Shown: piece by piece, positions 1 to 44,316 of the stretch
How positions within the stretch are numbered: the stretch's first letter is position 1
Layout: each line of letters begins with the position of its first letter
Source of the DNA: a virus
Taxonomy: Duplodnaviria; Caudoviricetes
DNA length: 57,447 nt
IMG/VR virus record: IMGVR_UViG_3300012931_000003
Location: 1 to 57,447 of that record
Reading direction: 5' to 3' (one strand)
Notes under the pieces: generated by a model
The model's input: only the letters and a program-made list of their open reading frames with translations
The model's database searches: none
Told to the model about the DNA's origin: nothing
Made by a program: the position numbers and the translations under genes

Positions 1-837
1 GCGTGGTCTCCGGAACTTGGGTTGTTTGTGATGACCGCATACGGCAGTACTGTTTGTGCAACATCCCCAGACGGAATAACATGGACTGAAAGGACCATAT
101 CGGCAACGTCGAGAAACTGGCGTGGAGTCGCGTGGTCTCCGGAACTTGGGTTGTTTGTGATGACCGCGTCCAGCGGAACTTTTTGTGCAACATCCCCAGA
201 CGGAATAACATGGACTGAAAGGACCATATCGGCAACGTCGAGAATTTGGTATGAAGTCGCGTGGTCTCCGGAACTTGGGTTGTTTGTGATGACCGCGTCC
301 AACAGCACTGTTTGTGCAACATCCCCAAACGGAATAACATGGACTGAAAGGACCATATCGGCAACGTCGAGAAACTGGTGTGGAGTCGCGTGGTCTCCGG
401 AACTTGGGTTGTTTGTGATGACCGCATACGGCAGTACTGTTTGTGCAACATCCCCAGACGGAATAACATGGACTGAAAGGACCATATCGGAAACACCTAG
501 AGGCTGGTACGGAATTGCGTGGTCTCCGGAACTTGGGTTGTTTGTGATGATAGCATACGGCAGCACTGTTTGTGCAACATCCCCAGACGGAATAACATGG
601 ACTGAAAGGACCATATCGGCAACGTCGAGAGACTGGCGTGGAGTCGCGTGGTCTCCGGAACTTGGGTTGTTTGTGATGACCGCGTCCAGCGGAACTGTTT
701 GTGCAACATCCCCAGACGGAATAACATGGACTGAAAGGACCATATCGGAAACACCTAGAAGCTGGTACGGAATTGCGTGGTCTCCGGAACTTGGGTTGTT
801 TGTGATGATAGCATACGGCAGCACTGTTTGTGCTACC
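1..837 (+). repeat. Tandem 129-bp (43-codon) near-identical coding repeats; 7 units counting the partial unit at about 57290-57331
   Basis: Units start at 1, 130, 259, 388, 517, 646 and 775. Confidence 0.95.
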
Positions 838-1203
838 TACAAACTATATGATTATCAGAAAGTTGCAGGGTATCCACAGTCAGGGTACGTCTCCGGTAGA
901 GGCTGGTGGACGAAGTTCGCGGACGGGACGCTGATTCAGAGAGGCAGTAATGATATGACAGTTGCTTTGGTTAATCAAAACATTGGAACATATGGATGGT
1001 CATACTACGTGGCAGGCCAGGCTATTCTATTTCCTTTAGAGTTTTACGGAACTACTGATGATTTTGATATAGCCACATCTTCCTTTATGGATTCTGGGGC
1101 ATTGAAGTCGCAAGGCGTGACAGGAGTTTATTTATACCGAAAAGACATATCCGGCACGACGCGCGCCGTGTCGTGGATCGCAATCGGAAGGTGGAAGGCA
1201 TGA
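1..1203 (+). CDS. C-terminal part of the receptor-binding protein: 43-aa beta-propeller-type repeats plus a gp53-like C-terminal fibre domain
   Basis: Repeats AWSPELGLFVM..TSPDGITWTERTIS carry an Asp-box/BNR-like S-x-D-G-x-T-W motif. The C-terminal GWWTKFADGTLIQRG...WIAIGRWK motif is typical of tail-fibre gp53-like domains. Confidence 0.8.
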   Translation, partial: AWSPELGLFVMTAYGSTVCATSPDGITWTERTISATSRNWRGVAWSPELGLFVMTASSGTFCATSPDGITWTERTISATSRIWYEVAWSPELGLFVMTASNSTVCATSPNGITWTERTISATSRNWCGVAWSPELGLFVMTAYGSTVCATSPDGITWTERTISETPRGWYGIAWSPELGLFVMIAYGSTVCATSPDGITWTERTISATSRDWRGVAWSPELGLFVMTASSGTVCATSPDGITWTERTISETPRSWYGIAWSPELGLFVMIAYGSTVCATYKLYDYQKVAGYPQSGYVSGRGWWTKFADGTLIQRGSNDMTVALVNQNIGTYGWSYYVAGQAILFPLEFYGTTDDFDIATSSFMDSGALKSQGVTGVYLYRKDISGTTRAVSWIAIGRWKA

Positions 1204-1287
1204 TGCATCAAATACAACTTGAAATATTTAAAGAAAAACAGAGATGTATAAACAAAATATCAAAAATAAAATTTAAATCAAAGGGGC

Positions 1288-1674
1288 TTGGCAAAAATGC
1301 TTGATGCTATATTTAAGACTGTTTTTAGTACACTGTCGGTGTCGCTAATAGTTTATATTATTAGTAAAGTTGTTGTCAGGTTCACATTGCCAATAGAGCT
1401 GAAAACAAGGCTTGATAAATTTGAAAGCAAGTTCGATGAGTTTAGTAAAAAATATAGTGAAGGGTCAGAAAGAAATAAGGCATCTCAGGTTGCTATGTTC
1501 ACAATGCAGGATATACAATTCGACGCAATGAAAAGTACGAATGGTGCAATACGAGAGCTTGCGAAAAGCGTGTGCAATGGAAATAAAGAAGACGCAATCA
1601 GGTTGTGTAATGAATCAGACAATGATATAAGTAAAGGCAAGGAGATACGACGTTCGGTAAGCATAGGAGTGTAA
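1288..1674 (+). CDS. Membrane protein at the start of the lysis cassette (holin/antiholin-like)
   Basis: N-terminal hydrophobic helix (VFSTLSVSLIVYIISKVVV) followed by coiled coil; lies between the RBP and the lysin candidate. Confidence 0.5.
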   Translation: MAKMLDAIFKTVFSTLSVSLIVYIISKVVVRFTLPIELKTRLDKFESKFDEFSKKYSEGSERNKASQVAMFTMQDIQFDAMKSTNGAIRELAKSVCNGNKEDAIRLCNESDNDISKGKEIRRSVSIGV

Positions 1675-1675
1675 T

Positions 1676-2242
1676 ATGATTAGAAACGATTGTAAGTTTG
1701 TTATACGAAGGAAGATGCCGTCTTACAACTTCAAGAAAAACATGAAGTCTAAAGATTCATGGGACGGTGACCATAATGCGCAGTACAACATGGAAGATGA
1801 TGTCTTGCTGCTAAAAGACGGCGTTGAGGTGTTCTCTTGCAAGGCTCAGACTGTTGCGAATATGCCGGGATGTAGGCATACCGATACGATTATGCCCGGA
1901 AGCGGCTCTATTAAATGGGACGTACCTCGCAGAGCGTTCAAGGGCCATGTTCATGGATTTGTTGGGTTCTACGACCAAGACGGTCAACTCATAGACGATA
2001 ATAGCGTAGAGCCAATAGAAGGAAAAGACGGATCGCCTAAAGATTGGGCAAGATGGATTTTTTGTCACTCTACGGCAAAGAATGATCCGGCTCCAGACGG
2101 AGAAGTGACAAGATTCGCTTGGTCTGCCGGTTGTACTATAACCACCCCAGAGAAACAAGCTGAGTTATTCGAAGTCGGGTCAAGTCTTGGTTTTAAGGCT
2201 GGTGATATAATACCTTGCAAGCTCATCGAAGTGGAAGGTTAG
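1676..2242 (+). CDS. Putative endolysin of L,D-transpeptidase (YkuD/Tlde1/DUF5675-like) fold
   Basis: H...WSAGC catalytic-type motif (CHSTAK...AWSAGC) and upstream TIMPG; occupies the endolysin slot before a holin-like gene. Confidence 0.55.
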   Translation: MIRNDCKFVIRRKMPSYNFKKNMKSKDSWDGDHNAQYNMEDDVLLLKDGVEVFSCKAQTVANMPGCRHTDTIMPGSGSIKWDVPRRAFKGHVHGFVGFYDQDGQLIDDNSVEPIEGKDGSPKDWARWIFCHSTAKNDPAPDGEVTRFAWSAGCTITTPEKQAELFEVGSSLGFKAGDIIPCKLIEVEG

Positions 2243-2243
2243 T

Positions 2244-2546
2244 ATGGACGACACGTTTGAGTTGATAAAGAAAGTAGCAGAGTGGCTTGACTCACTCGGA
2301 GTAAATCCGGTAAAGGTTGCAGGAATAATATTCCTAATGTGGGGTATAAAATCAGCAGACAAAAGAAAGAAGCTTAAGCCATTCTATGTGCTAATGACCA
2401 TGATCCCAGGCTCTATTGTATGTCTAATTACTGATAAATTCTCAGTAAATACGTGGGTACTCGACACGATAGTTCACTCTGCTGCTGCATCATTCTCATA
2501 CGCGATATGGGCTGCTGTATGGAAAGATAGAAAGAAGGAGAAATAA
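2244..2546 (+). CDS. Putative holin
   Basis: 100 aa, about 3 hydrophobic segments, highly charged C-terminus (KDRKKEK). Confidence 0.6.
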   Translation: MDDTFELIKKVAEWLDSLGVNPVKVAGIIFLMWGIKSADKRKKLKPFYVLMTMIPGSIVCLITDKFSVNTWVLDTIVHSAAASFSYAIWAAVWKDRKKEK

Positions 2547-3040
2547 TGTGCTCGAAAAACTTAAAAAAACTGCATTCATTTGTGGCCTTATTCTTGCTGG
2601 TATCATTATCGGCGTCATTCTCTCAGGCGCCTACTCAGGAAAAAATGTACGAGATCTCAGAGACAGACTTACTACGGTTACTGTGGATCGAGACTCGCTC
2701 AGGAGAGATCAACGCAGAGCTACAGAAAGCGCACGATCTGTCTATCGCGAAGTTAGGGAGCTTGCAGGAGGAGTTGCAAGCGCTACGCTTAGAGCTGAAC
2801 GAGCTGAAAAAGAAGGTGGAGAGCTTAGAGAAATCATCGTCGGAAGCGGTGGAAGCATCGCTGAAAGCGGAAAACTCTCTGAGGAAGCTAGAGGAATCCT
2901 TCGACGCGTATATGAAAGCGGCGGAAAGTAAAATAAAAGAGTTGGGCAAGAAGGCTTTTTTGTACAAGGTCCTAGCGTTTTTACTTGGAGCTGCTGCGGC
3001 TGGATTGGCCGCACATGACGCTCTAGAAGATGCGTTCTAA
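2546..3040 (+). CDS. Spanin-like protein A: signal peptide, coiled coil, C-terminal hydrophobic helix
   Basis: ATG 2546 after AAGGAG; FVALFLLVSLSASFS signal; heptad region; LYKVLAFLLGAAAAGLAA. Confidence 0.6.
   Translation: MCSKNLKKLHSFVALFLLVSLSASFSQAPTQEKMYEISETDLLRLLWIETRSGEINAELQKAHDLSIAKLGSLQEELQALRLELNELKKKVESLEKSSSEAVEASLKAENSLRKLEESFDAYMKAAESKIKELGKKAFLYKVLAFLLGAAAAGLAAHDALEDAF
2548..2931 (+). CDS. Spanin-like protein B (i-spanin topology), fully nested in another frame
   Basis: GTG 2548; TM helix AFICGLILAGIIIGVILSG followed by a helical/coiled-coil region. Confidence 0.6.
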   Translation: MLEKLKKTAFICGLILAGIIIGVILSGAYSGKNVRDLRDRLTTVTVDRDSLRRDQRRATESARSVYREVRELAGGVASATLRAERAEKEGGELREIIVGSGGSIAESGKLSEEARGILRRVYESGGK

Positions 3041-3220
3041 TCATCGCTCTTTTCCAGCCCTCTGCCTTTCAGCCCTCCTGGTCCTGGCCTCCCTCTTGGA
3101 TATGTAATCCCTCATCGCTGTGACTGCCATGAACTTTACGTTCTTCTCATTTCCCTCGTCATAGACGGTGAATCGGGAGTAAAGATCGTCATCAATCGTC
3201 AAAACCAAAGTCTTTGCCAT
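3041..3220 (-). CDS. Ribbon-helix-helix (Arc/CopG-like) regulator, 59 aa, not in the ORF track
   Basis: Translated by hand: MAKTLVLTIDDDLYSRFTVYDEGNEKNVKFMAVTAMRDYISKRE...; GGAG RBS; strand-helix-helix pattern. Confidence 0.6.
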   Translation of the reverse strand: MAKTLVLTIDDDLYSRFTVYDEGNEKNVKFMAVTAMRDYISKREARTRRAERQRAGKER

Positions 3221-3355
3221 GCCTCGTTCTCCATTTTTAGGTAGACTGTAGAGCCTTCCTGTATGATATGCTTATTTCTTCGCAGTCCTGCGTAATCCTG
3301 CGTAGAACTCACACCACAGAGTGTACACCACAGACGGTCGAAAGTCAACGTTTTC

Positions 3356-4903
3356 TCACTTCAGCCTGGATACAACCGAAATAGCCTCTCGAAGCTCAAA
3401 AATGCTCATTTCGTCCACGTGCTTGCGTATCAGTTTACCGTCTTCCCCTCGACCGTTGTTTATTTTCAGCTTGATCATGTCATATATGAGCTTCCGGCGC
3501 TTAACCGTAGCCGTGTTTATCCTTACGCTATCCCCATCTATGTCGGCCATGCTCTTCATATCTAAGTATTTGCATATAGCATCATCTAGATCCTTTCTTA
3601 GCTTGCGCTCAAGACCGGATACGGTCATGTGGTCGTTTACGATGTGGAACCCGGTTATCTCGGTGTAGATGGGATTCACGCGTGGCTTGGTATTGAACGG
3701 ATTGGGATTCTTGCTTCGTTCGTCAACTTGCCTGTCTTTTGAGGCATGGATTACTTCGTGTTGGATGTCGCTTACGACTTCTAATAAAAGACTGTCAGCA
3801 GGGGCGAACACGTATCCCTTGTCTTTTCCTGAGGCTAGTCGCTGGCATCTCGCTATGGCTTGATTTATCCATGATTTTGAACGTATGTGAGTAAGTAGGG
3901 CTATATGCGATATGTCTGGAACGTCAAGTCCCTCATAAGCTTTAGCACAGCTGCATAACGCATCGAATTTGCCATTTTTGAATAAATGTATATTTTCATC
4001 TGACTCGCTATCCTCTGACACGGATATTGTTGCGTTTATTCCTCTCGATATTAGATATTCGAATGTTCTTCTCGTGCTAATAACATTAGAGTCAATTGTA
4101 AGTAATTTGCTTTTTTTATTTATGGTAGTCCTATATTCATTCCAGTGCTTTCCGCATTCATATAGTATGTTTTCTGCTGCCGTAGTTTTCAATGCTGAAG
4201 ACAATGCACTCCTGTCGTATCCAAGTTTATCGAATGATACTTCTTTGTCGTCCTTTATGTATGAACCGGACGAGTTGAAAAATGCAAATTGGATTGGAAG
4301 TATTACGCCGTCGTCCAATGCCTGTTGGCGAGTGTATGTTATCCATCTTGTTTTATCTGTATTTGTCTTGTCTGGCTTTCCGTTAATATAGGGTATGTTT
4401 TTTATAAAACCATTGTTAGTTTCAAACGTACCTGTCATTAATATTCGTATTTTAGCCATGTCTATTAACTTATAAACACTCTCTCCCCAATCTGCTTCAT
4501 CTATAAGATGATGGACTTCATCAACTATTATTCCAAAGTTTTTCTCTGAAAGCTCTGAAATATGAAGATCTGTATCTGACGATACTCCCTGATATGTCGA
4601 TATATACCCATCACAACCACGCAGTAGGTTTTTTGTATTTTGGGCCGCTCTAAGTATATTCCCATGATAAAATCTAGCGTCGAGACAATCGGATTCAAAT
4701 TGGTCTCTAAGAGATATTCTTGGAACTATTACAACGAAAAAATCAACAGATTTGTGTACCAATGTATTGAATGCTATCAATGCTGCGCTGGTCTTTCCTG
4801 AACCTGGAGTTGCATCTAATATTATGTTTCTTATTCCAGAGCCGTTATTTATATCACGGCATATAATCTCAATATCCTCCTGGTGTCTTCTTTTTATTAT
4901 CAC
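3356..4903 (-). CDS. Superfamily 2 (DExH, ResIII-like) helicase
   Basis: Motifs ATPGSGKT, DEVHH, MTGT, EGLDVP, QAIARCQR. Confidence 0.9.
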   Translation of the reverse strand: MIIKRRHQEDIEIICRDINNGSGIRNIILDATPGSGKTSAALIAFNTLVHKSVDFFVVIVPRISLRDQFESDCLDARFYHGNILRAAQNTKNLLRGCDGYISTYQGVSSDTDLHISELSEKNFGIIVDEVHHLIDEADWGESVYKLIDMAKIRILMTGTFETNNGFIKNIPYINGKPDKTNTDKTRWITYTRQQALDDGVILPIQFAFFNSSGSYIKDDKEVSFDKLGYDRSALSSALKTTAAENILYECGKHWNEYRTTINKKSKLLTIDSNVISTRRTFEYLISRGINATISVSEDSESDENIHLFKNGKFDALCSCAKAYEGLDVPDISHIALLTHIRSKSWINQAIARCQRLASGKDKGYVFAPADSLLLEVVSDIQHEVIHASKDRQVDERSKNPNPFNTKPRVNPIYTEITGFHIVNDHMTVSGLERKLRKDLDDAICKYLDMKSMADIDGDSVRINTATVKRRKLIYDMIKLKINNGRGEDGKLIRKHVDEMSIFELREAISVVSRLK

Positions 4904-15035: not shown

Positions 15036-15503
15036 ATGAAACATACAGCGAAACTATTGAGCTTGCCCATTTTATTGGTCGCCCTGGTATCATGCGAAGC
15101 TATCCATAATGTACAGGCTATATATGAGTACTTTGATGATGCATACGCAGACCAGGATATACCCTATCAACCGTGCTCTCTTGACGAGGCATGGCAATGG
15201 GTGTCAGTCAACATCGAATACCGTGCCGATCCTCAAGGCGGACGCAAGCGCTCACCTGAAGAGACCTACGCACTACGCTATGGCGATTGTGAAGACTATG
15301 CGCTATTGCTCGCTTACTTTGGCTATACGCTAGGGCTTGACGTGCGCGTGGTAGTTTCCGCGGATCACGCCATATGTAAACACAACGGCCTATACATTGA
15401 GCCTCAAGTATATAATAAATACTATGATGAATTCCCGGTCACCAGGGAATACACCTATCAAGAGGCCTTTTATACCCCATTCATTCGATCAACAAACAAC
15501 TAA
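15036..15503 (+). CDS. Lipoprotein with transglutaminase-like cysteine protease domain
   Basis: Signal ending LLVALVS-C; GDCEDYA, DHA and IEPQ motifs. Confidence 0.75.
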   Translation: MKHTAKLLSLPILLVALVSCEAIHNVQAIYEYFDDAYADQDIPYQPCSLDEAWQWVSVNIEYRADPQGGRKRSPEETYALRYGDCEDYALLLAYFGYTLGLDVRVVVSADHAICKHNGLYIEPQVYNKYYDEFPVTREYTYQEAFYTPFIRSTNN

Positions 15504-25888: not shown

Positions 25889-25962
25889 TGCCCCCGCATT
25901 GATTTGAACAATGGACCCGCTGATTATGAGTCAGCCGCTCTAACCAACTGAGCTACAGGGGC
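25889..25962 (-). tRNA. tRNA with CAU anticodon, most likely tRNA-Ile2 (lysidine); no encoded CCA
   Basis: GCCCCTGTAGCTCAGTTGGTTAGAGCGGCTGACTCATAATCAGCGGGTCCATTGTTCAAATCAATGCGGGGGCA folds as a cloverleaf; C4:G69 and C5:G68 pairs (TilS determinants), A73. Confidence 0.9.
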
Positions 25963-26343: not shown

Positions 26344-26392
26344 AGGAACCTCCTGAGAAATTTTCGAACACCAAATCAACGATCTGGTTTAC

Positions 26393-26479
26393 CGGAGCCT
26401 GGAAGATTCGAACTTCCGTAACCATTGCTGGTTATACAGTTTTCAAGACTGCCACCTTCGGCCTCTCGGTCAAGGCTCC
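26393..26479 (-). tRNA. tRNA-Ser(UGA); no encoded CCA
   Basis: GGAGCCT acceptor, GCAGT-CTTGAAA-ACTGT anticodon arm, long variable arm, GGAAG-TTCGAAT-CTTCC T arm, G73. Confidence 0.92.
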
Positions 26480-26492
26480 ATCTATAAAATAA

Positions 26493-36407: not shown

Positions 36408-37560
36408 TCACAATTTTCTATACAGTGAATCATTCCTATCATAAAGAACATACCTTCCTTTGAAATGCCTTCTAAGCATTCTCAGGAAAGTATCTACATA
36501 CATATCTTTGCAATCAGGAAACAGGCTTGTGCATTCGTTCCTTAAATCTACTCCAAAGAAGAAGTGCCCGTTTTCCCATCTTTTGAATACCATTTTCACC
36601 GCTTCCGTCATGCTTGTTATCTTCTCTGACATACAACGCCTCCTTGGAAATATCTTCAAGTTTTCCAATGTAGTCAGTTAGCATATTCAATCTACCGACA
36701 GTATCAGATCTATTATCTGCTATGGACTTATTTCTCCATTTATCAATCCACGCATGAAGATCGTTTTTTAACGTATTGTCATTATTTATTTTTAACTCTC
36801 TGTATGAATATTCTTCATTTTTTTTCTTCTTGGAATCATACAGAACTGAAACTTCAAGCAATGTGGCCCTTATTATGAAAAACACCCATATAATTATTCT
36901 TACGTCAACTCCAGTCTTATCAGCAATTATCTGGAATTGAGTCATAGATTCATCTGAAACATTCTCAGACTCATATTTTAGCAATTCTTTTTGATAATAG
37001 TCTCTAAATGATATGTAATCTTTTAGTATATCTGTTTCTTTTTGAGGAACTAATTTATCAGGCGTGTCCCTAATTCTCTTTTCCTGCATTAATATCAAAT
37101 CTTCCTGTTTTTTAATATTATCTTTTAGGCTAAGAACGTATGATTTATTTGTTTCTTTGTATGATGCCTTCAACGTCTCAGAGACAGAGCTGCCAACAAA
37201 TGCTATCATTGAAATGATGATAAATATTGAAGCCATAAGCCTCTTTCCATCATCCCATAGCTGGACTCTCTTTACATCGAACACAACTCCAGATATTCCA
37301 TTGAACCAGTAAAAGAACAAATTGCTTCCAGCAAGAGATGAATAAAATAGAAATGACATCATGGCAGACATAATAAAAGCTATAAGCCTATTCGACCCAT
37401 AAAAAAGTGATTTTATCTTTTCCATAATTGTTACGCAAGATCTATATCATTCCCGATCTCATCTTCCTCAATATCTACCGGGATATCAGCCTCTTCTTCA
37501 GGCTTGATATTGACATCCTGCAAAGCCTCCTTTTCTTTTTTCGGGAATATCTTGAACATT
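36408..37560 (-). CDS. Three - strand genes: 36408-36632, multi-TM/coiled-coil protein 36514-37425, small acidic protein about 37431-37559
   Basis: ORF track; hydrophobic helices in 36514-37425. Confidence 0.5.
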
Positions 37561-37622
37561 TTTATCCTTAACTCTTGATTATACATGATTATATCTCCAG
37601 ATATGTCAAAAGTCAATTGGCA

Positions 37623-37651
37623 TTGACGATAGATACAGTTGAATATATCAT
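37623..37651 (+). promoter_or_regulatory. Promoter of the packaging/head operon
   Basis: TTGACG-17-TATCAT followed by an AAGGA RBS. Confidence 0.65.
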
Positions 37652-37663
37652 ACATTCAAAGGA

Positions 37664-38032
37664 TTGAATATGGCAAATTCGATAAAACTGTCCAGGGCAA
37701 TGCAGAAAACAATTGTTAGTTCTCTGAAAGACGCCATGCAGATACATGAGCAATTCGTGGACAGGAATGGTGAGTTCGTAGATGCCTCACTTAGCGAAAT
37801 AGCGTCAGCTCTTATCATAGAAGAGGCAATGCCGTTTGATGAAGATAAAGGAGTTCGAGTTCTTGGAAATTACAAAATACTAAAAGATATACTTGACGCT
37901 ACTAGAGAGGAGGAGGGGGACGAAAATAGTCTTGATGCAGCTCTCGAAAGAGTTGTTAATAGGATTTCAGAAAGAAAAAAAGAAAATTTAATAGCAGCGC
38001 AAGAAGATGTTATTGATGCGGAAATAGAATGA
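37664..38032 (+). CDS. Probable terminase small subunit
   Basis: Size, and position overlapping the terL start. Confidence 0.5.
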   Translation: MNMANSIKLSRAMQKTIVSSLKDAMQIHEQFVDRNGEFVDASLSEIASALIIEEAMPFDEDKGVRVLGNYKILKDILDATREEEGDENSLDAALERVVNRISERKKENLIAAQEDVIDAEIE

Positions 38033-39579
38033 AAAGCGCAATGGCAGAGCTTCAGGAATATTATTTTGATAAGCCTTATGAATATGTGTGTGATATAATA
38101 TTTGAAGGAAATATAAAACTAGACGGTCCTAGAGAAGAGCGAAGAGGTCCAACTGGACAACAAAAAAAAGTATTATTAGCTTGCGGTAAATCAGCGCGAG
38201 ATAGAAGGCCAGTATCGGTAAAATCTGGGCATGGTACAGGAAAAACATGTCTCGCTGCGTGGATAATCCTTTGGTTCCTATTTACTCACCCATACTCAAA
38301 GGTTGGATGCACGGCCCCAACAGAACGACAATTAAAAAACGGATTATGGGGCGAGCTTACTAAGTGGATAAATAGGTCAGAAATATGTAAGGCTTTCTTT
38401 AAGTGGAAAACAGAGACAGTTGAAGTAAAAGGCTTTGGAATGGCATGGGCTGCCGAACTTAGAGCCGCATATAGACCAGAAAATCTTGCTGGTCTTCATG
38501 GAGAGGGCGGAACACTCATAATAGCCGATGAAGCGTCAGGTATTCTTGATGATAACATTTGGGACACGGTAAGTGGAGCTTTGTCAGACGTTGGCTCATT
38601 CCTAATGATGATAGGGAACCCAACTCAAATACGTGGTAATTTCCATAGATCATTTTTCGATAAATCAGGTAGAGCGCGCTGCATAACACTTTCATGCGAG
38701 GATGATGACTATCGAGGAGACCCACACTACGCGAAAGAAATGGCTGCAAAGTACGGAAGAGATTCGGATAGATATCGAGTCCGCGTTTTGGGCGAATTTC
38801 CAATAGACATGCCAGACGCATTTATAAGATTGCGATGGCTTCAGGATTGCTATAACAGAGACTTCACTCAATCTTTAACCCCAGTTGTTTCGATAGATCC
38901 GGCAGATCAGGGGGATGACGATACAGAGATATGTGCTTCTGTTGGGTACAGGCTGGTGTATCGCAGGACCATGGCTGGAGAAACTGATGGACCTATGAAT
39001 GCACAGGGGGTATTGGTAGCAATTCATTACATGCGACAGAATTGCAAGGAGTTCGGCTTCCATAAAGACGTTCCAATAACAGTAGTAGTAGACTCGACCG
39101 GCCTTGGGGCTGCGACAAGAGATGCACTTAGAGTGTTTGAGCGTGTTGAAAATTTCAAATTAATCTGCGTAAATGCTGCCGAGTCTGGAAATGACGAATA
39201 TGAAAGGATGAGCGACTTACTCTGGGGAAATCTAAAAACATTAATATCGCATGTATCGATACCAAGAAGAAGCGATAGTTTCGAAGATGGGAGAGTTGTA
39301 AAAGAAAGCAGGCGCGGAGACGGTTTTGACGACGCTGAGTATTTTGAAGAACTTGAGGATCAGGTATGCGGCAGAAAATATACAATAAATCCTTCGAGCG
39401 GAAAGATATCACTTGAAACTAAGGCCGACTTAAAGAAGCGCGGAAAGCCGTCTCCAAACATGGCGGACGCTCTCACACTGCTCATGGTCCCATTCATGAG
39501 GTATGGTATTGACTCAAAGCCGAGTAACGGTAAAAGATATAGTATTAAGGCGAAGAGTCCTTATGACGGAGACTACTGA
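38029..39579 (+). CDS. terL: Terminase large subunit
   Basis: SGHGTGKT, IADEASG, IGNPT, SIDPA, VDSTGLG, SPNMADAL. Confidence 0.95.
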   Translation: MKSAMAELQEYYFDKPYEYVCDIIFEGNIKLDGPREERRGPTGQQKKVLLACGKSARDRRPVSVKSGHGTGKTCLAAWIILWFLFTHPYSKVGCTAPTERQLKNGLWGELTKWINRSEICKAFFKWKTETVEVKGFGMAWAAELRAAYRPENLAGLHGEGGTLIIADEASGILDDNIWDTVSGALSDVGSFLMMIGNPTQIRGNFHRSFFDKSGRARCITLSCEDDDYRGDPHYAKEMAAKYGRDSDRYRVRVLGEFPIDMPDAFIRLRWLQDCYNRDFTQSLTPVVSIDPADQGDDDTEICASVGYRLVYRRTMAGETDGPMNAQGVLVAIHYMRQNCKEFGFHKDVPITVVVDSTGLGAATRDALRVFERVENFKLICVNAAESGNDEYERMSDLLWGNLKTLISHVSIPRRSDSFEDGRVVKESRRGDGFDDAEYFEELEDQVCGRKYTINPSSGKISLETKADLKKRGKPSPNMADALTLLMVPFMRYGIDSKPSNGKRYSIKAKSPYDGDY

Positions 39580-42254: not shown

Positions 42255-43158
42255 GATCGTACAGCATCTTTTCGGTCAGAACGTCGCCGCCATGGAGGCC
42301 CGCATCGAAACGGAAGCCCTCTATGACGCGCTGAATAGCGGCGACTTCATCATCGACATCTACGACGCTGGGAAGGGCGGCGTGTGCCGCGCTCCTTCGA
42401 AAAACAAGTGGGGCGGATCGGTAAATGCACCGGTCCCTGAAGATCCTCGCCCGTATGGATTCTACGCGTCAGTTGAAGGACAGACCGGCGACGTGGTCCT
42501 GTTCGTCAACGACGACAAGACGACCGAAGTGGGAACCGGGTCATTCGCTTACGGCGACCCCGTATACGCAACCCCGGCAGCGAGCCTCAAATGCACCATC
42601 GCGGACACCGCGAGCGTTGGGTCATACTTCATCGGCACCGTCGAAGGCCCACTCCAGACCGCCACGGTGGACGGAAGCACCTACAAATACGTGTGGGTTC
42701 GCCTGCGGAAAGAAGGCGTCGGATTCGCCTCGGTCAACAAGATCGCGTCGGCGGTTCTATCGGGGACTGCCATCGCGGGCGGCGTCGGTGAAGCGGCAAT
42801 CGTTACGGGCGGCGAGACGATCATAATCACGCTCACCGGCGACACCTGGGCCACGTATGACGGTACGGCTCTGTATCTGATCGCCACGGCGGATAAGCTC
42901 ATCGACGGTCTCGCTCACGTTTCCGGCACAGACGATCTGGCCGACATCAAGACGGCCCTCAAGGCTGCTTGCAACTCAACCGACAATACGGCGGTTATTC
43001 GCACGAGCGCTACGGTCATGACGATCACGCTTCCTGCGGTTGCCGGATACTCCATCGCCGCCGACGAGGAAATTTCACTCGAAATAGACGCCGATCTGCT
43101 CGTTTCGACGACCACACCGCTCGCCTCTTCGCCGCACATCACCGTGACGGCTGCGTAA
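42247..43158 (+). CDS. Head decoration/cement protein with extra C-terminal beta domain
   Basis: Between scaffold and capsid; Thr/Ala/Gly-rich; high-expression-type codons. Confidence 0.5.
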   Translation: MAKIVQHLFGQNVAAMEARIETEALYDALNSGDFIIDIYDAGKGGVCRAPSKNKWGGSVNAPVPEDPRPYGFYASVEGQTGDVVLFVNDDKTTEVGTGSFAYGDPVYATPAASLKCTIADTASVGSYFIGTVEGPLQTATVDGSTYKYVWVRLRKEGVGFASVNKIASAVLSGTAIAGGVGEAAIVTGGETIIITLTGDTWATYDGTALYLIATADKLIDGLAHVSGTDDLADIKTALKAACNSTDNTAVIRTSATVMTITLPAVAGYSIAADEEISLEIDADLLVSTTTPLASSPHITVTAA

Positions 43159-43170
43159 AGGAGAAGAAAA

Positions 43171-44316
43171 ATGAGGATCATCGACAAGCATTTCGACGTT
43201 CCAGTAACCATGCAGGGAGAGCGATCAACTATCTCCGGCATGGAAACCATAGCCCTTTTCAAGGACTATGCGTCCGCGATGAAGGGCGGGGCACTTTCAC
43301 AGCAGGCTCTCGACGGAGCGAAAGAATTCGTCGGAGACAGTTTCATCAGGATTTCAGGCCAGACAGAAACCCTTCCGGCCGACCTGTACGATCAGCTTTC
43401 TACCCTCGACCCGACTTGGAAGCCGTACATCATCGACTTCACGCGAACCATCGCCATGCGGGAGAAGGTGTATCAGCCGATCTACGAAACTATGGAGTCA
43501 CCAGACTTCGATGAAACCATGAAGACCATCGACTTCACCGGTTTCTCATCGTTCGCATACACCAAATGGATCGACGGAGCCGCCGTTCTCATGAACACCT
43601 TCCGAGAAGGCGAGAGTGATTCCGTTACCCTCCAGATCCACGCTGGCGGTTACGTCCGAACTCTGCGCGACAAGCTTTTCAATAAGCGCTGGCGCCAAGA
43701 AAAGGTTGCTCGTGCTCAGGCTCAGGGCTACAACGACTTCCTCAACCACTTGTACCTAGGCCCGATCCTGAAGGCTTCGTACACGGGGAAGACGGTCGTC
43801 GTCGGCGACGTTGACGCAACTCAGGCTACTACGTGGTGGGCGAAGAACTGGTCCATCATGAAGCTCGCCAAGGATGCGTACTTCACCGCGAAAGACCCGC
43901 TCGATCAGCCGTTCGAAACTCCGATCCTGATGATGAACAAGGCCACGTACATGACCGCGTTCTCCGACACCCTCGATGCCATCAACTTCGCAGACAGTAA
44001 GAGGTACGCCTCAATGCGAGGATGGTGGAGCGGAATCGTGATTTACGACGGTGCTACCGTTGACTTCGACGGAAGGCCGGTCGTGTATCCGAAGCCTGCT
44101 GACGGAGAGGTCTACATGATCTCACCGAAAACCGGCTTCAAGGAACTCATCAAACAGCCTCTCACTATGGTTACTTCACCCGGCGACGCAAACCACCTGA
44201 GCGAACAGACTCAGGTCTGGTGGGACTGCCGAGGAATCATCTGCGCCGCTGACGACTACGGCGTGAAGATGACCCTCATCATGGCGAGCGACACCACGAA
44301 CGGAATCGCTGCCTAA
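43171..44316 (+). CDS. Major capsid protein
   Basis: 381 aa, AAGGAG RBS, strong codon bias, followed by a terminator. Confidence 0.75.
   Translation: MRIIDKHFDVPVTMQGERSTISGMETIALFKDYASAMKGGALSQQALDGAKEFVGDSFIRISGQTETLPADLYDQLSTLDPTWKPYIIDFTRTIAMREKVYQPIYETMESPDFDETMKTIDFTGFSSFAYTKWIDGAAVLMNTFREGESDSVTLQIHAGGYVRTLRDKLFNKRWRQEKVARAQAQGYNDFLNHLYLGPILKASYTGKTVVVGDVDATQATTWWAKNWSIMKLAKDAYFTAKDPLDQPFETPILMMNKATYMTAFSDTLDAINFADSKRYASMRGWWSGIVIYDGATVDFDGRPVVYPKPADGEVYMISPKTGFKELIKQPLTMVTSPGDANHLSEQTQVWWDCRGIICAADDYGVKMTLIMASDTTNGIAA

What the first reader, a model, noticed from the sequence alone, without database searches (positions are those of the whole stretch)
2535..3040. Two membrane proteins encoded in different frames from one Shine-Dalgarno (ATGTG double start)
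Seen: AAGGAG (2535-2540) is followed by ATG at 2546 and GTG at 2548. Both frames stay open (164 and 127 aa), and both give a basic N-terminus, a hydrophobic helix and a coiled coil from the same DNA. The longer one also has a C-terminal hydrophobic helix. Known: canonical Rz/Rz1 pairs nest a lipoprotein o-spanin in the 3' part with its own RBS. Neither product here has a well-placed lipobox Cys. Inference: a non-canonical, possibly lipoprotein-free two-component outer-membrane disruption system with stoichiometry set by start-codon competition.
Basis: partly seen in the sequence, partly recalled or inferred. Interest (0 to 1): 0.72.

Follow-up and report, generated by a model that had tools for sequence, protein, structure and literature searches.

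The report
Two membrane proteins, one overlapping start
At the end of a phage's cell-bursting gene cluster, one stretch of DNA is read in two frames from start codons two bases apart to give two different membrane-anchored proteins, an arrangement kept in distant relatives although what the pair does is still unknown.

Summary
AAGGAG (2535-2540) precedes ATG 2546 (frame A, 164 aa) and GTG 2548 (frame B, 127 aa). A has a signal-peptide-like N-terminus, a heptad-rich helix and a C-terminal membrane helix. B has an N-terminal membrane helix and an Arg-rich heptad helix.

Given either protein and the phage's codon usage, about 10 stops are expected in the other frame; none occurs (0 of 3000 resamples). 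The same pair, with B always +2 of A and the starts 2-5 bases apart (ATGTG in five loci), follows the same 188-aa enzyme gene in 10 of 11 related loci. One of these is Tetrasphaera phage TJE1, where the pair is unannotated. The proteins themselves have diverged to about 20-35% identity. Neither hydrophobic N-terminus is a passive by-product of the other frame.

One close pair of loci has 2 differences in 289 shared bases, against 9 in 127 A-only bases and 87 in 564 in the neighbouring gene. Spirochaete prophages carry look-alike A and B genes in the staggered "overlapped spanin" layout, but homology to this pair is not detectable.

The function is unproven. No lipobox is present, both proteins look anchored in the cytoplasmic membrane, and TJE1's host has no outer membrane. 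A canonical spanin is therefore unlikely.

The parts
2535..2540 (+). Shared Shine-Dalgarno sequence AAGGAG, 5 nt before the ATG of A and 7 nt before the GTG of B
   Evidence: Purine-rich SD-like sequences precede the paired starts in the related loci too.
2546..3040 (+). Frame A, 164 aa: signal-peptide-like N-terminus (residues 8-29, small-x-small S-F-S before Q27), heptad-rich helical ectodomain, C-terminal membrane helix (residues 136-158, nt 2951-3019)
   Evidence: Homologues P0001 (91%) and P0002 (72%) were called in this frame on other contigs. The ESM Atlas model aligns to long helical hairpins.
2548..2931 (+). Frame B (+2 of A), 127 aa: N-terminal membrane helix (residues 5-31, nt 2560-2640) and an Arg-rich heptad helix. 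It ends before the DNA that encodes A's C-terminal helix.
   Evidence: The window's own record calls this frame (P0026). Kept open and hydrophobic in related loci.
2244..2546 (+). 100-aa holin candidate: 2-3 hydrophobic segments and a Lys/Arg-rich C-terminus. Its TAA stop overlaps A's ATG.
   Evidence: No family hit, so it is assigned by position, size and hydrophobicity only.
1676..2242 (+). 188-aa soluble protein of phrog_26752, an endolysin candidate by position
   Evidence: E 9.5e-61, function unknown. 23 database relatives at E<=1e-5, one of them the window's own protein. In spirochaete prophages the same slot before holin-B-A holds either this family or an Amidase_2 (PF01510) enzyme. No PDB relative by sequence.
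1288..1674 (+). 128-aa protein with an N-terminal membrane helix (7-36) and a charged helical tail; first gene of the cassette
   Evidence: Only weak hits to Phage_Gp23 and Holin_BhlA.

Best explanation
Positions 2546-3040 are a true dual-coding locus. One mRNA region with one Shine-Dalgarno sequence is translated from ATG 2546 and from GTG 2548 into two unrelated bitopic membrane proteins.

A is exported by a cleavable signal peptide and stays tethered by a C-terminal helix (type I topology). B is held by an uncleaved N-terminal helix with its helical domain outside (type II topology). The same DNA therefore encodes A's signal peptide and B's anchor in two frames, and two heptad helices in two frames.

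The pair is the last module of a mobile lysis cassette (membrane protein, 188-aa enzyme, holin candidate, A/B).

Inferred, not shown: the two ectodomains meet on the outer face of the cytoplasmic membrane and act with or after the holin and endolysin in the final step of lysis. They sit in the spanin position but are not canonical spanins. The A:B ratio is set by which of the two adjacent starts the ribosome takes, plus re-initiation from the upstream gene onto A.
For: 1. Both frames are open against expectation: 0 of 3000 resamples each way in the window. Own-codon permutation gives P from 0.0008 to 0.13 in 8 loci. Fisher's combination over 7 loci gives 8.7e-8, with L010 dropped as a near-copy of L009 and L003 dropped as truncated.

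2. Conservation. Of the window plus 10 loci whose 188-aa gene is 57% identical or more, 10 of 11 show the pair directly downstream. L003 and L006 are truncated but show both N-termini. L011 shows nothing in the 580 nt available. B is always +2 of A. The starts are ATGTG in W, L003, L007, L008 and L010; GTGTG in L009; and 5 nt apart in L004, L005 and TJE1. P0001 and P0002 begin with Met-Cys, which implies ATGTG there too. A and B are only about 17-38% identical between loci, so the frames have stayed open through near-saturating divergence.

3. Neither hydrophobic N-terminus is a by-product of the other (3000 resamples per locus, synonymous codons weighted by locus GC). With A fixed, B's observed hydrophobicity is reached in 0.3% or fewer resamples in 8 of 10 loci (L005 19%, L008 2%). 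With B fixed, A's is reached in 5% or fewer in 10 of 10.

4. L009 against L010. The neighbouring gene has 87 of 564 differences, 67 at third positions. The overlapped core (nt 50-338) has 2 differences, both non-synonymous in A and silent in B. The A-only tail (nt 339-465) has 9, of which 6 are synonymous.

5. Composition. A's third positions are 70% purine and 57% GC, like a first codon position. The codon log-likelihood of B (-506.6) is slightly better than that of A (-512.2) over the same span. T at A's third position is 0.13, against 0.15-0.34 in 30 other ORFs.

6. Gene callers split: B is called in the window's record and A on the related contigs.

7. Lysis context.

8. In a second set of loci, mostly spirochaete prophages, proteins with the same two architectures are separately recognisable genes. 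A starts at about 0.4 of B's length, in B's +1 frame. L015 has the co-start form, ATGAATG.
Against: - There is no expression or protein evidence for either frame.
- High-GC relatives are weak evidence on their own. In TJE1, 4 of 36 annotated genes have a +2 run of 120 or more codons from their start, and TJE1's resampling P is only 0.013-0.02.
- One window gene, the capsid-like ORF, has a 113-codon +2 run.
- The L009/L010 pattern rests on one pair and could be a recombination mosaic.
- B has no relative among 1.84 billion representatives apart from itself and one weak match of 39 of B's residues.
- Homology between the window's group and the spirochaete group is not detectable: hhalign probability is 2% for A and 12% for B. 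That comparison is therefore by architecture, position and frame only.
- No consistent charge complementarity between the A and B ectodomains.
- Binding of A to B was not tested.
- The host is unknown.
Confidence: 0.7

Rival explanations
1. The pair is a lipoprotein-free functional equivalent of a two-component spanin. B is the i-spanin analogue. A replaces the outer-membrane lipoprotein. Together they breach an outer membrane or other outer layer after the wall is degraded.
For: - The pair is the last module of the cassette, after the holin candidate.
- B has the i-spanin architecture, an N-terminal membrane helix plus a coiled coil (definition in PMC6139136).
- Out-of-frame overlap is the hallmark of spanin pairs. 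The spirochaete look-alikes have exactly the 'overlapped' layout, with the second gene starting at about 0.4 of the first gene's length, in its +1 frame, as described for o-spanins.
- 2 of 7 spirochaete B proteins hit PHROGs annotated 'Rz-like spanin' weakly (E 0.0017 and 0.0062).
- Spirochaetes have an outer membrane (textbook knowledge, not a call). The prophage ORFs listed after the holin are B, A and a third N-anchored coiled-coil protein; none was seen to carry a lipobox, but no lipobox scan was run on these loci.
- A lipobox scan of the whole window finds no lipoprotein near the lysis genes.
Against: - A has no lipobox Cys and ends in a membrane helix preceded by Lys/Arg, so it should stay in the cytoplasmic membrane.
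- Neither ectodomain has a Cys in any of the 8 complete group-1 loci. About 96% of spanin pairs have one.
- TJE1 infects a Micrococcales actinobacterium, which has no outer membrane.
- The window's terminase and capsid resemble those of Bacillota phages at 24-34% identity.
- No spanin family is matched by the window's A or B.
Confidence: 0.2
2. The pair tunes the holin (timing, antiholin-like, or holin-helper), acting only in the cytoplasmic membrane. Accessory membrane proteins that accompany holins in phages of single-membrane bacteria work this way. So does the T4 arrangement of an N-anchored holin with a secreted antiholin (recalled, not from a call).
For: - Both proteins are predicted to be anchored in the cytoplasmic membrane.
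- A's start is translationally coupled to the holin candidate (TAATG in the window; GTGA in TJE1; ATGA onto B in L015).
- The pair occurs in a phage of a host without an outer membrane.
- Weak match of A residues 72-151 to phrog_937, annotated 'hemolysin' (E 0.012).
- Weak matches of A (window E 0.0015, TJE1 E 3.9e-5) to TIGR04211, both below its cut-off.
Against: - No family membership is shown.
- Known dual-start holin/antiholin pairs share one frame and one sequence, unlike this pair.
- Nothing here links the pair physically to the holin.
- L005 has the pair directly after the 188-aa gene with no holin gene between them.
Confidence: 0.3
3. Only one frame is a gene. The other is an open 'shadow' frame caused by the purine-rich, T-poor codon mix of a coiled-coil gene, and its hydrophobic start is a mirror of the real one.
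For: - Long +2 runs occur in other genes: 113 codons in the window's capsid-like ORF, and 4 of 36 TJE1 genes with 120 or more.
- With A fixed, frame B passes a hydrophobicity of 1.6 in 4-68% of resamples.
- B has no database relatives.
- Gene callers pick only one frame per contig.
Against: - Own-codon permutation, which keeps the T-poor codon mix, still gives a combined P of 8.7e-8.
- The observed hydrophobicity is far above the by-product level in both directions.
- Start codons for both frames are conserved within 2-5 nt behind one SD in all 10 group-1 loci that show the pair, the window included.
- B ends before A's C-terminal helix in each of these loci that is complete.
- Synonymous change in A is suppressed only where B overlaps.
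- Proteins of both architectures exist as separately recognisable genes in the spirochaete set.
Confidence: 0.1

Closest known systems
Two-component spanins (lambda Rz/Rz1 type; embedded, overlapped and separated architectures; Kongari et al. 2018, PMC6139136, passages read)
   Same: Last genes of a lysis cassette. Two proteins from overlapping frames of one DNA stretch. One partner (B) is an N-terminally anchored protein with a coiled-coil outer domain. In the spirochaete look-alikes the second gene starts at about 0.4 of the first gene's length, in its +1 frame.
   Different: The second protein is not a lipoprotein and carries its own C-terminal membrane helix. In the window the two genes start 2 nt apart behind one SD, instead of the second starting mid-gene with its own ribosome site. 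The ectodomains have no Cys. No sequence family match. At least one host has no outer membrane.
Unimolecular spanins (phage T1 gp11 type; PMC6139136)
   Same: A has an N-terminal export signal and a C-terminal membrane helix, the same end-to-end layout.
   Different: u-spanins need a lipobox Cys for outer-membrane anchoring, which A lacks. A is helical and heptad-rich. It comes with a second, co-encoded protein.
Dual-start holin/antiholin motifs (lambda S105/S107; recalled, not from a call)
   Same: Two closely spaced start codons behind one ribosome site in a lysis gene give two membrane proteins, whose ratio would depend on start choice.
   Different: Those starts are in the same frame and give nearly identical proteins. 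Here the starts are in different frames and give unrelated sequences with opposite topology.
TIGR04211 'SH3_and_anchor' proteins
   Same: Weak matches over the coiled-coil and C-terminal part of the model: window A residues 69-133, E 0.0015; TJE1 A residues 71-165, E 3.9e-5. That TIGR04211 members have a coiled coil followed by a C-terminal anchor is recalled from the family's name and description, not from a call.
   Different: Scores of 18 and 23 bits against a cut-off of 65. No SH3 domain. This is a resemblance of architecture, not membership.

Membership tests
Two-component spanin (i-spanin + o-spanin) | i-spanin: N-terminal transmembrane helix followed by a helical or coiled-coil periplasmic domain | tested here: met
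   B has a hydrophobic segment at 5-31. Heptad occupancy is 0.75 against 0.49 in shuffles, with 0 of 500 reaching it. The same architecture is seen in the 8 complete group-1 loci.
Two-component spanin (i-spanin + o-spanin) | o-spanin: lipoprotein signal with a lipobox Cys | tested here: not met
   A's only Cys is residue 2. By eye, in the sequences printed, group-1 A proteins end their signal with small-x-small motifs before Q, E or S (for example T-A|Q-S), and none has a Cys that fits the lipobox. The lipobox scan of the window finds only 15036-15503.
Two-component spanin (i-spanin + o-spanin) | Genes adjacent or overlapping, usually at the end of the lysis cassette | tested here: met
Two-component spanin (i-spanin + o-spanin) | Periplasmic Cys for intermolecular disulfides (present in about 96% of pairs) | tested here: not met
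   0 Cys in the A and B ectodomains of the 8 complete group-1 loci.
Two-component spanin (i-spanin + o-spanin) | Host with an outer membrane | not testable with these tools
   The window's host is unknown (wetland metagenome runs). TJE1's host is Actinomycetota/Micrococcales. The spirochaete look-alikes are in hosts with an outer membrane.
Two-component spanin (i-spanin + o-spanin) | Match to a described spanin sequence family | tested here: not met
   No match for the window's A or B in PHROGs, Pfam or NCBIfam. Only 2 of 7 spirochaete B proteins match, weakly.
Unimolecular spanin | Lipoprotein signal at the N-terminus and a transmembrane helix at the C-terminus of one protein | tested here: not met
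   The C-terminal helix is present (136-158), but there is no lipobox.
Dual-start holin/antiholin | Two in-frame starts giving products that differ only at the N-terminus | tested here: not met
   The starts are 2 nt apart, in different frames.
Same-strand overlapping (dual-coding) gene pair | Second frame open beyond expectation from the first frame's protein and codon usage | tested here: met
   Control.
Same-strand overlapping (dual-coding) gene pair | Both frames conserved in diverged homologues, with reduced synonymous change in the overlap | tested here: met
   10 of 11 group-1 loci. One close pair shows 2 differences in the overlapped core against 9 in the shorter A-only tail. This rests on one pair only, so recombination is not excluded.
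Same-strand overlapping (dual-coding) gene pair | Both products made | not testable with these tools
   No proteomic or ribosome-profiling data. The runs found are DNA contigs.

The most novel reading that the evidence does not exclude
The A/B pair is a new, lipoprotein-free class of envelope-disrupting or membrane-fusing lysis proteins. It would be a type I plus type II pair of coiled-coil proteins that zip together antiparallel, like a post-fusion hairpin. It would be used both by phages of spirochaetes and by phages that lack recognisable spanins. In one lineage it has been compressed so far that signal peptide and membrane anchor, and the two coiled coils, are written on the same bases from a shared ATGTG start.
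Probability: 0.2. Interest if true: 0.85.

Novelty: new variant of a known kind. Interest (0 to 1): 0.7.

Why it matters
Out-of-frame gene pairs in lysis cassettes are known from Rz/Rz1. In those, a short disordered lipoprotein is nested in the second half of a longer gene and has its own ribosome site.

Here two structured membrane proteins of similar length share their start region. An export signal and a membrane anchor are co-encoded on the same bases, as are two heptad helices, and this has held through divergence to about 20-35% identity.

- It is a demanding natural case for how much two functional sequences can be superimposed. That bears on overlapping-gene evolution and design.
- It offers a simple system for studying start-codon choice between adjacent out-of-frame starts.
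- Gene callers annotate only one frame (A on some contigs, B on the window's record) or neither (RefSeq TJE1). Half of the module is therefore missing from databases.
- If the pair proves to act on the envelope, it would add a lysis component for phages in which no spanin can be found. In PMC6139136, 91 of 677 genomes had none.

Tried and rejected
**Searches that found nothing**
- No family for A, B, the holin candidate or the 128-aa protein in PHROGs, Pfam or NCBIfam. A gets only weak coiled-coil hits.
- No phage record is similar to A by tblastn. Blastn of 1200-3300 matches only TJE1, over the 188-aa gene.
- A-based locus searches in viral and metagenome contigs found nothing.
- A profile of the 188-aa family against PDB sequences found nothing.
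- The spirochaete A protein has no match in the phage collection.
- The window's portal was not found in the 401 Spirochaetota genomes searched, so this gives no host call.
- Rfam finds only the two tRNAs. The promoter/terminator scan is at background level.

**Tests that did not help**
- hhalign of group-1 A and B against the spirochaete A and B gave probabilities of 2% and 12%. A homology claim was therefore dropped.
- Charge complementarity of the ectodomains is not consistent.
- Variable sites around the conserved 10-nt core are spread evenly over codon positions (15, 14 and 14 of 21), so they do not say which frame is constrained.
- In the spirochaete set, the region-wise substitution counts are mixed. 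Only the most diverged pair shows a lower rate in the overlap: 26 of 179, against 53 of 124 and 47 of 235.
- Laying contigs of four wetland runs on 1200-3400 gave only short pieces and no usable variants. The run search itself shows two likely source samples.
- ESM Atlas: the nearest feature clusters are unnamed, with 'commonest Spirochaetota' at score 0.92. This is a lead only.

**Literature**
- Searches for TJE1, spanin architectures, overlapping phage genes behind the same SD, and spanin plus Treponema turned up no description of a co-start pair like this.
- I read passages of PMC6139136 only. For the other papers I saw search listings and abstracts.
- That paper's supplementary tables (S3-S5, spanin positions and frames) could not be seen. 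They might hold a similar case.

- The search of earlier findings, structure prediction, complex prediction, and the Atlas for B. No fold of the 188-aa protein and no A-B complex prediction could be made.
- The link of phrog_937 'hemolysin' to the XhlA holin-helper family, and a YkuD-like His...Ser-x-Gly-Cys motif in the 188-aa protein, are recollections and were not tested.

**Correction of my own note**
- Recounting one search gives 4 of 36.
Full report
**What is there**

The window is a complete 57,447-bp phage record with 43.6% GC. It has a long tape-measure gene, a large terminase and replication genes.

At 2535-2540 lies AAGGAG. ATG follows at 2546 and GTG at 2548 (ATGTG). The TAA stop of the upstream 100-aa ORF overlaps the ATG.

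- Frame A (2546-3040, 164 aa) has hydrophobic segments at residues 8-29 and 136-158.
- Frame B (2548-2931, 127 aa) has one hydrophobic segment at 5-31.
- Both middle parts show heptad periodicity well above shuffles: 0.72 and 0.75 against 0.56 and 0.49, with 0 of 500 shuffles reaching either.
- A's N-terminal segment ends in S-F-S before Gln27, a small-x-small site typical of signal peptidase I.
- Neither protein has a lipobox.

**Is it more than chance?**

- With A's protein held fixed and synonymous codons redrawn from the phage's own usage, frame B should contain 9.6 stops in 127 codons. It has none, and 0 of 3000 resamples are open. The reverse test expects 9.9 stops and again gives 0 of 3000.
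- Permuting only A's own codons keeps its unusual T-poor third positions (0.13, against 0.15-0.34 in 30 other ORFs). It still gives P=0.0034.
- A's third positions look like first positions of a coding frame (70% purine, 57% GC). A codon model trained on 19 long ORFs scores B slightly better than A over the same span.
- As a caution, one other window gene (capsid-like, 43171-44316) has a 113-codon +2 run from its start. In GC-rich TJE1, 4 of 36 genes have runs of 120 or more.

A single locus would therefore not be enough.

**Relatives**

- A has two database homologues, called in frame A on other contigs: P0001 at 91% and P0002 at 72%.
- The window's own record calls frame B instead (P0026).
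- B has no other relative among 1.84 billion representatives.

The neighbouring 188-aa gene (phrog_26752) is well conserved, so I used it as an anchor. It has 23 database relatives, one of them the window's own protein. An alignment of 21 sequences (the window's protein and 20 of these relatives) retrieved 18 metagenome loci, 6 viral loci and 1 genome locus. Tblastn also found Tetrasphaera phage TJE1.

The window and TJE1 share essentially only this gene, so the lysis module is mobile.

**Conservation of the pair**

I examined the window plus 10 loci whose 188-aa gene is 57-72% identical: L003 to L011, and L021, which is TJE1.

- 10 of 11 have, directly downstream, an A-type ORF (export signal, helix, C-terminal membrane helix) and a B-type ORF (N-terminal membrane helix, Arg-rich helix).
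- B is in the +2 frame of A in every case.
- Both ORFs start behind one purine-rich SD-like sequence.
- L003 and L006 are cut by the contig end but show both N-termini. L011 shows nothing in its 580 nt.

The starts are:

| Start arrangement | Loci |
|---|---|
| ATGTG | W, L003, L007, L008, L010 |
| GTGTG | L009 |
| Two starts 5 nt apart | L004, L005, TJE1 |

P0001 and P0002 begin with Met-Cys, which implies ATGTG there as well.

In TJE1 the pair lies in a 1.7-kb stretch that RefSeq leaves unannotated.

Between loci, A and B are only about 17-38% identical. The two frames have therefore stayed open, with the same architecture, through near-saturating divergence. Own-codon permutation P values for 8 loci range from 0.0008 to 0.13. 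Fisher's combination over 7 of them gives 8.7e-8.

**Is one hydrophobic N-terminus just the mirror of the other?**

This was tested by resampling, with synonymous codons weighted by locus GC.

- With A fixed, frame B is mildly hydrophobic by accident in 4-68% of resamples. The observed value is reached in 0.3% or fewer in 8 of 10 loci.
- With B fixed, A's observed value is reached in 5% or fewer in all 10 loci.

Both targeting sequences are therefore selected.

**Substitution pattern**

L009 and L010 are the only close pair with DNA available.

- Their 188-aa genes differ at 87 of 564 sites, 67 of them third positions.
- The overlapped core of the pair (nt 50-338) differs at 2 sites. Both change A and are silent in B.
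- The A-only tail (127 nt) differs at 9 sites, 6 of them synonymous.

This is what dual coding predicts. With one pair only, a recombination mosaic cannot be excluded.

**A second set of loci**

Loci whose 188-aa gene is about 30-36% identical include a prophage of Treponema socranskii. They carry a small holin, then a B-like gene of 96-111 aa, then an A-like gene of 129-152 aa. The A-like gene starts at about 0.4 of B's length, in B's +1 frame, and runs beyond B.

- The A-like protein was found in 8 of 301 sampled Spirochaetota genomes.
- All 6 of those loci that I examined have the B-like gene in front.
- In two of them the enzyme slot holds an Amidase_2 endolysin instead of the 188-aa family. 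This supports reading the 188-aa protein as the endolysin and the pair as part of the lysis cassette.
- One locus of this set, L015, has the co-start form, ATGAATG.
- Two loci, L022 and L023, lack the pair.

Profile comparison does not detect homology between the two sets. The link rests on architecture, position and relative frame.

**Function**

The layout recalls spanins: the last lysis genes, out-of-frame overlap, and an N-anchored coiled-coil partner (PMC6139136). Two of 7 spirochaete B proteins touch 'Rz-like spanin' PHROGs weakly.

Against a spanin:

- The defining lipoprotein is missing.
- A carries its own C-terminal membrane helix.
- The ectodomains have no Cys.
- TJE1's host is a Micrococcales actinobacterium.
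- The window phage's terminase and capsid are nearest to those of Bacillota phages.
- The only lipoprotein predicted in the window lies far from the cassette and has a transglutaminase-like core.

I therefore commit to this reading: a real dual-coding pair of cytoplasmic-membrane-anchored lysis accessory proteins, in the spanin position but not a canonical spanin.

| Reading | Odds |
|---|---|
| Both frames are genes (the 0.1 shadow-frame rival excludes this; the rest is left unassigned) | about 0.85 |
| The pair belongs to the lysis function | about 0.7 |
| It controls or helps the holin | about 0.3 |
| It breaches an outer layer | about 0.2 |
| Remainder: other or unknown function | |

**Verdict**

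- This is a new variant of the known theme of overlapping lysis genes. Its unusual features are the shared start and the superimposed targeting signals. The four literature searches turned up no description of such a pair.

Noticed in passing
window 15036-15503 (+): The only lipoprotein predicted in the genome: a signal ending in L-V-S-C, then a transglutaminase-like core (PF01841, E 7e-8). It has no C-terminal membrane helix and lies far from the lysis genes. It may be a surface or exclusion factor.
   Followed up: partly
L001 4556-6284 (TJE1 record 36,875-38,603): RefSeq TJE1 leaves about 1.7 kb unannotated after orf48. It holds a small membrane protein, the A/B pair (L001 4764-5267 and 4769-5179) and a further 116-aa membrane or secreted ORF.
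   Followed up: partly
window 43171-44316 (+), +2 frame; ORF 42969-43514: The capsid-like gene has a 113-codon open +2 frame from its start, and T at third positions is only 0.15. This may be chance in a T-poor gene or another overlapping ORF.
   Followed up: no
L005, L006, L009, L010, L021, about 30 codons into the pair: A 10-nt DNA core (CGCAATCGAC) is invariant in five otherwise diverged GC-rich loci. It encodes A-Q-S-T in frame A, at the predicted signal cleavage site, and R/A-A-I-D in frame B.
   Followed up: partly
window 1-1203 (+): An ORF that runs off the 5' end is made of about 44-residue repeats (W-S-P-E-L-G-L-F-V ... T-S-P-D-G-I-T-W-T-E-R) just upstream of the lysis cassette. It is probably the end of a tail fibre or receptor-binding protein that continues from the other end of the record.
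   Followed up: no
L032 (spirochaete genome locus), reverse strand: In one spirochaete prophage the enzyme slot before holin-B-A holds a DUF261 (PF03196) protein (E 1.3e-15) instead of a recognisable endolysin.
   Followed up: no
window 25889-25962 and 26392-26480 (-): Two phage-borne tRNA genes, Met (CAT) and Ser (TGA).
   Followed up: no
L027 5298-5624; window 1288-1674: A third small protein with an N-terminal membrane helix and a coiled coil accompanies the cassette. It lies after the pair in spirochaete prophages (weak DUF2730 match) and before the enzyme gene in the window. Its role is unknown.
   Followed up: no
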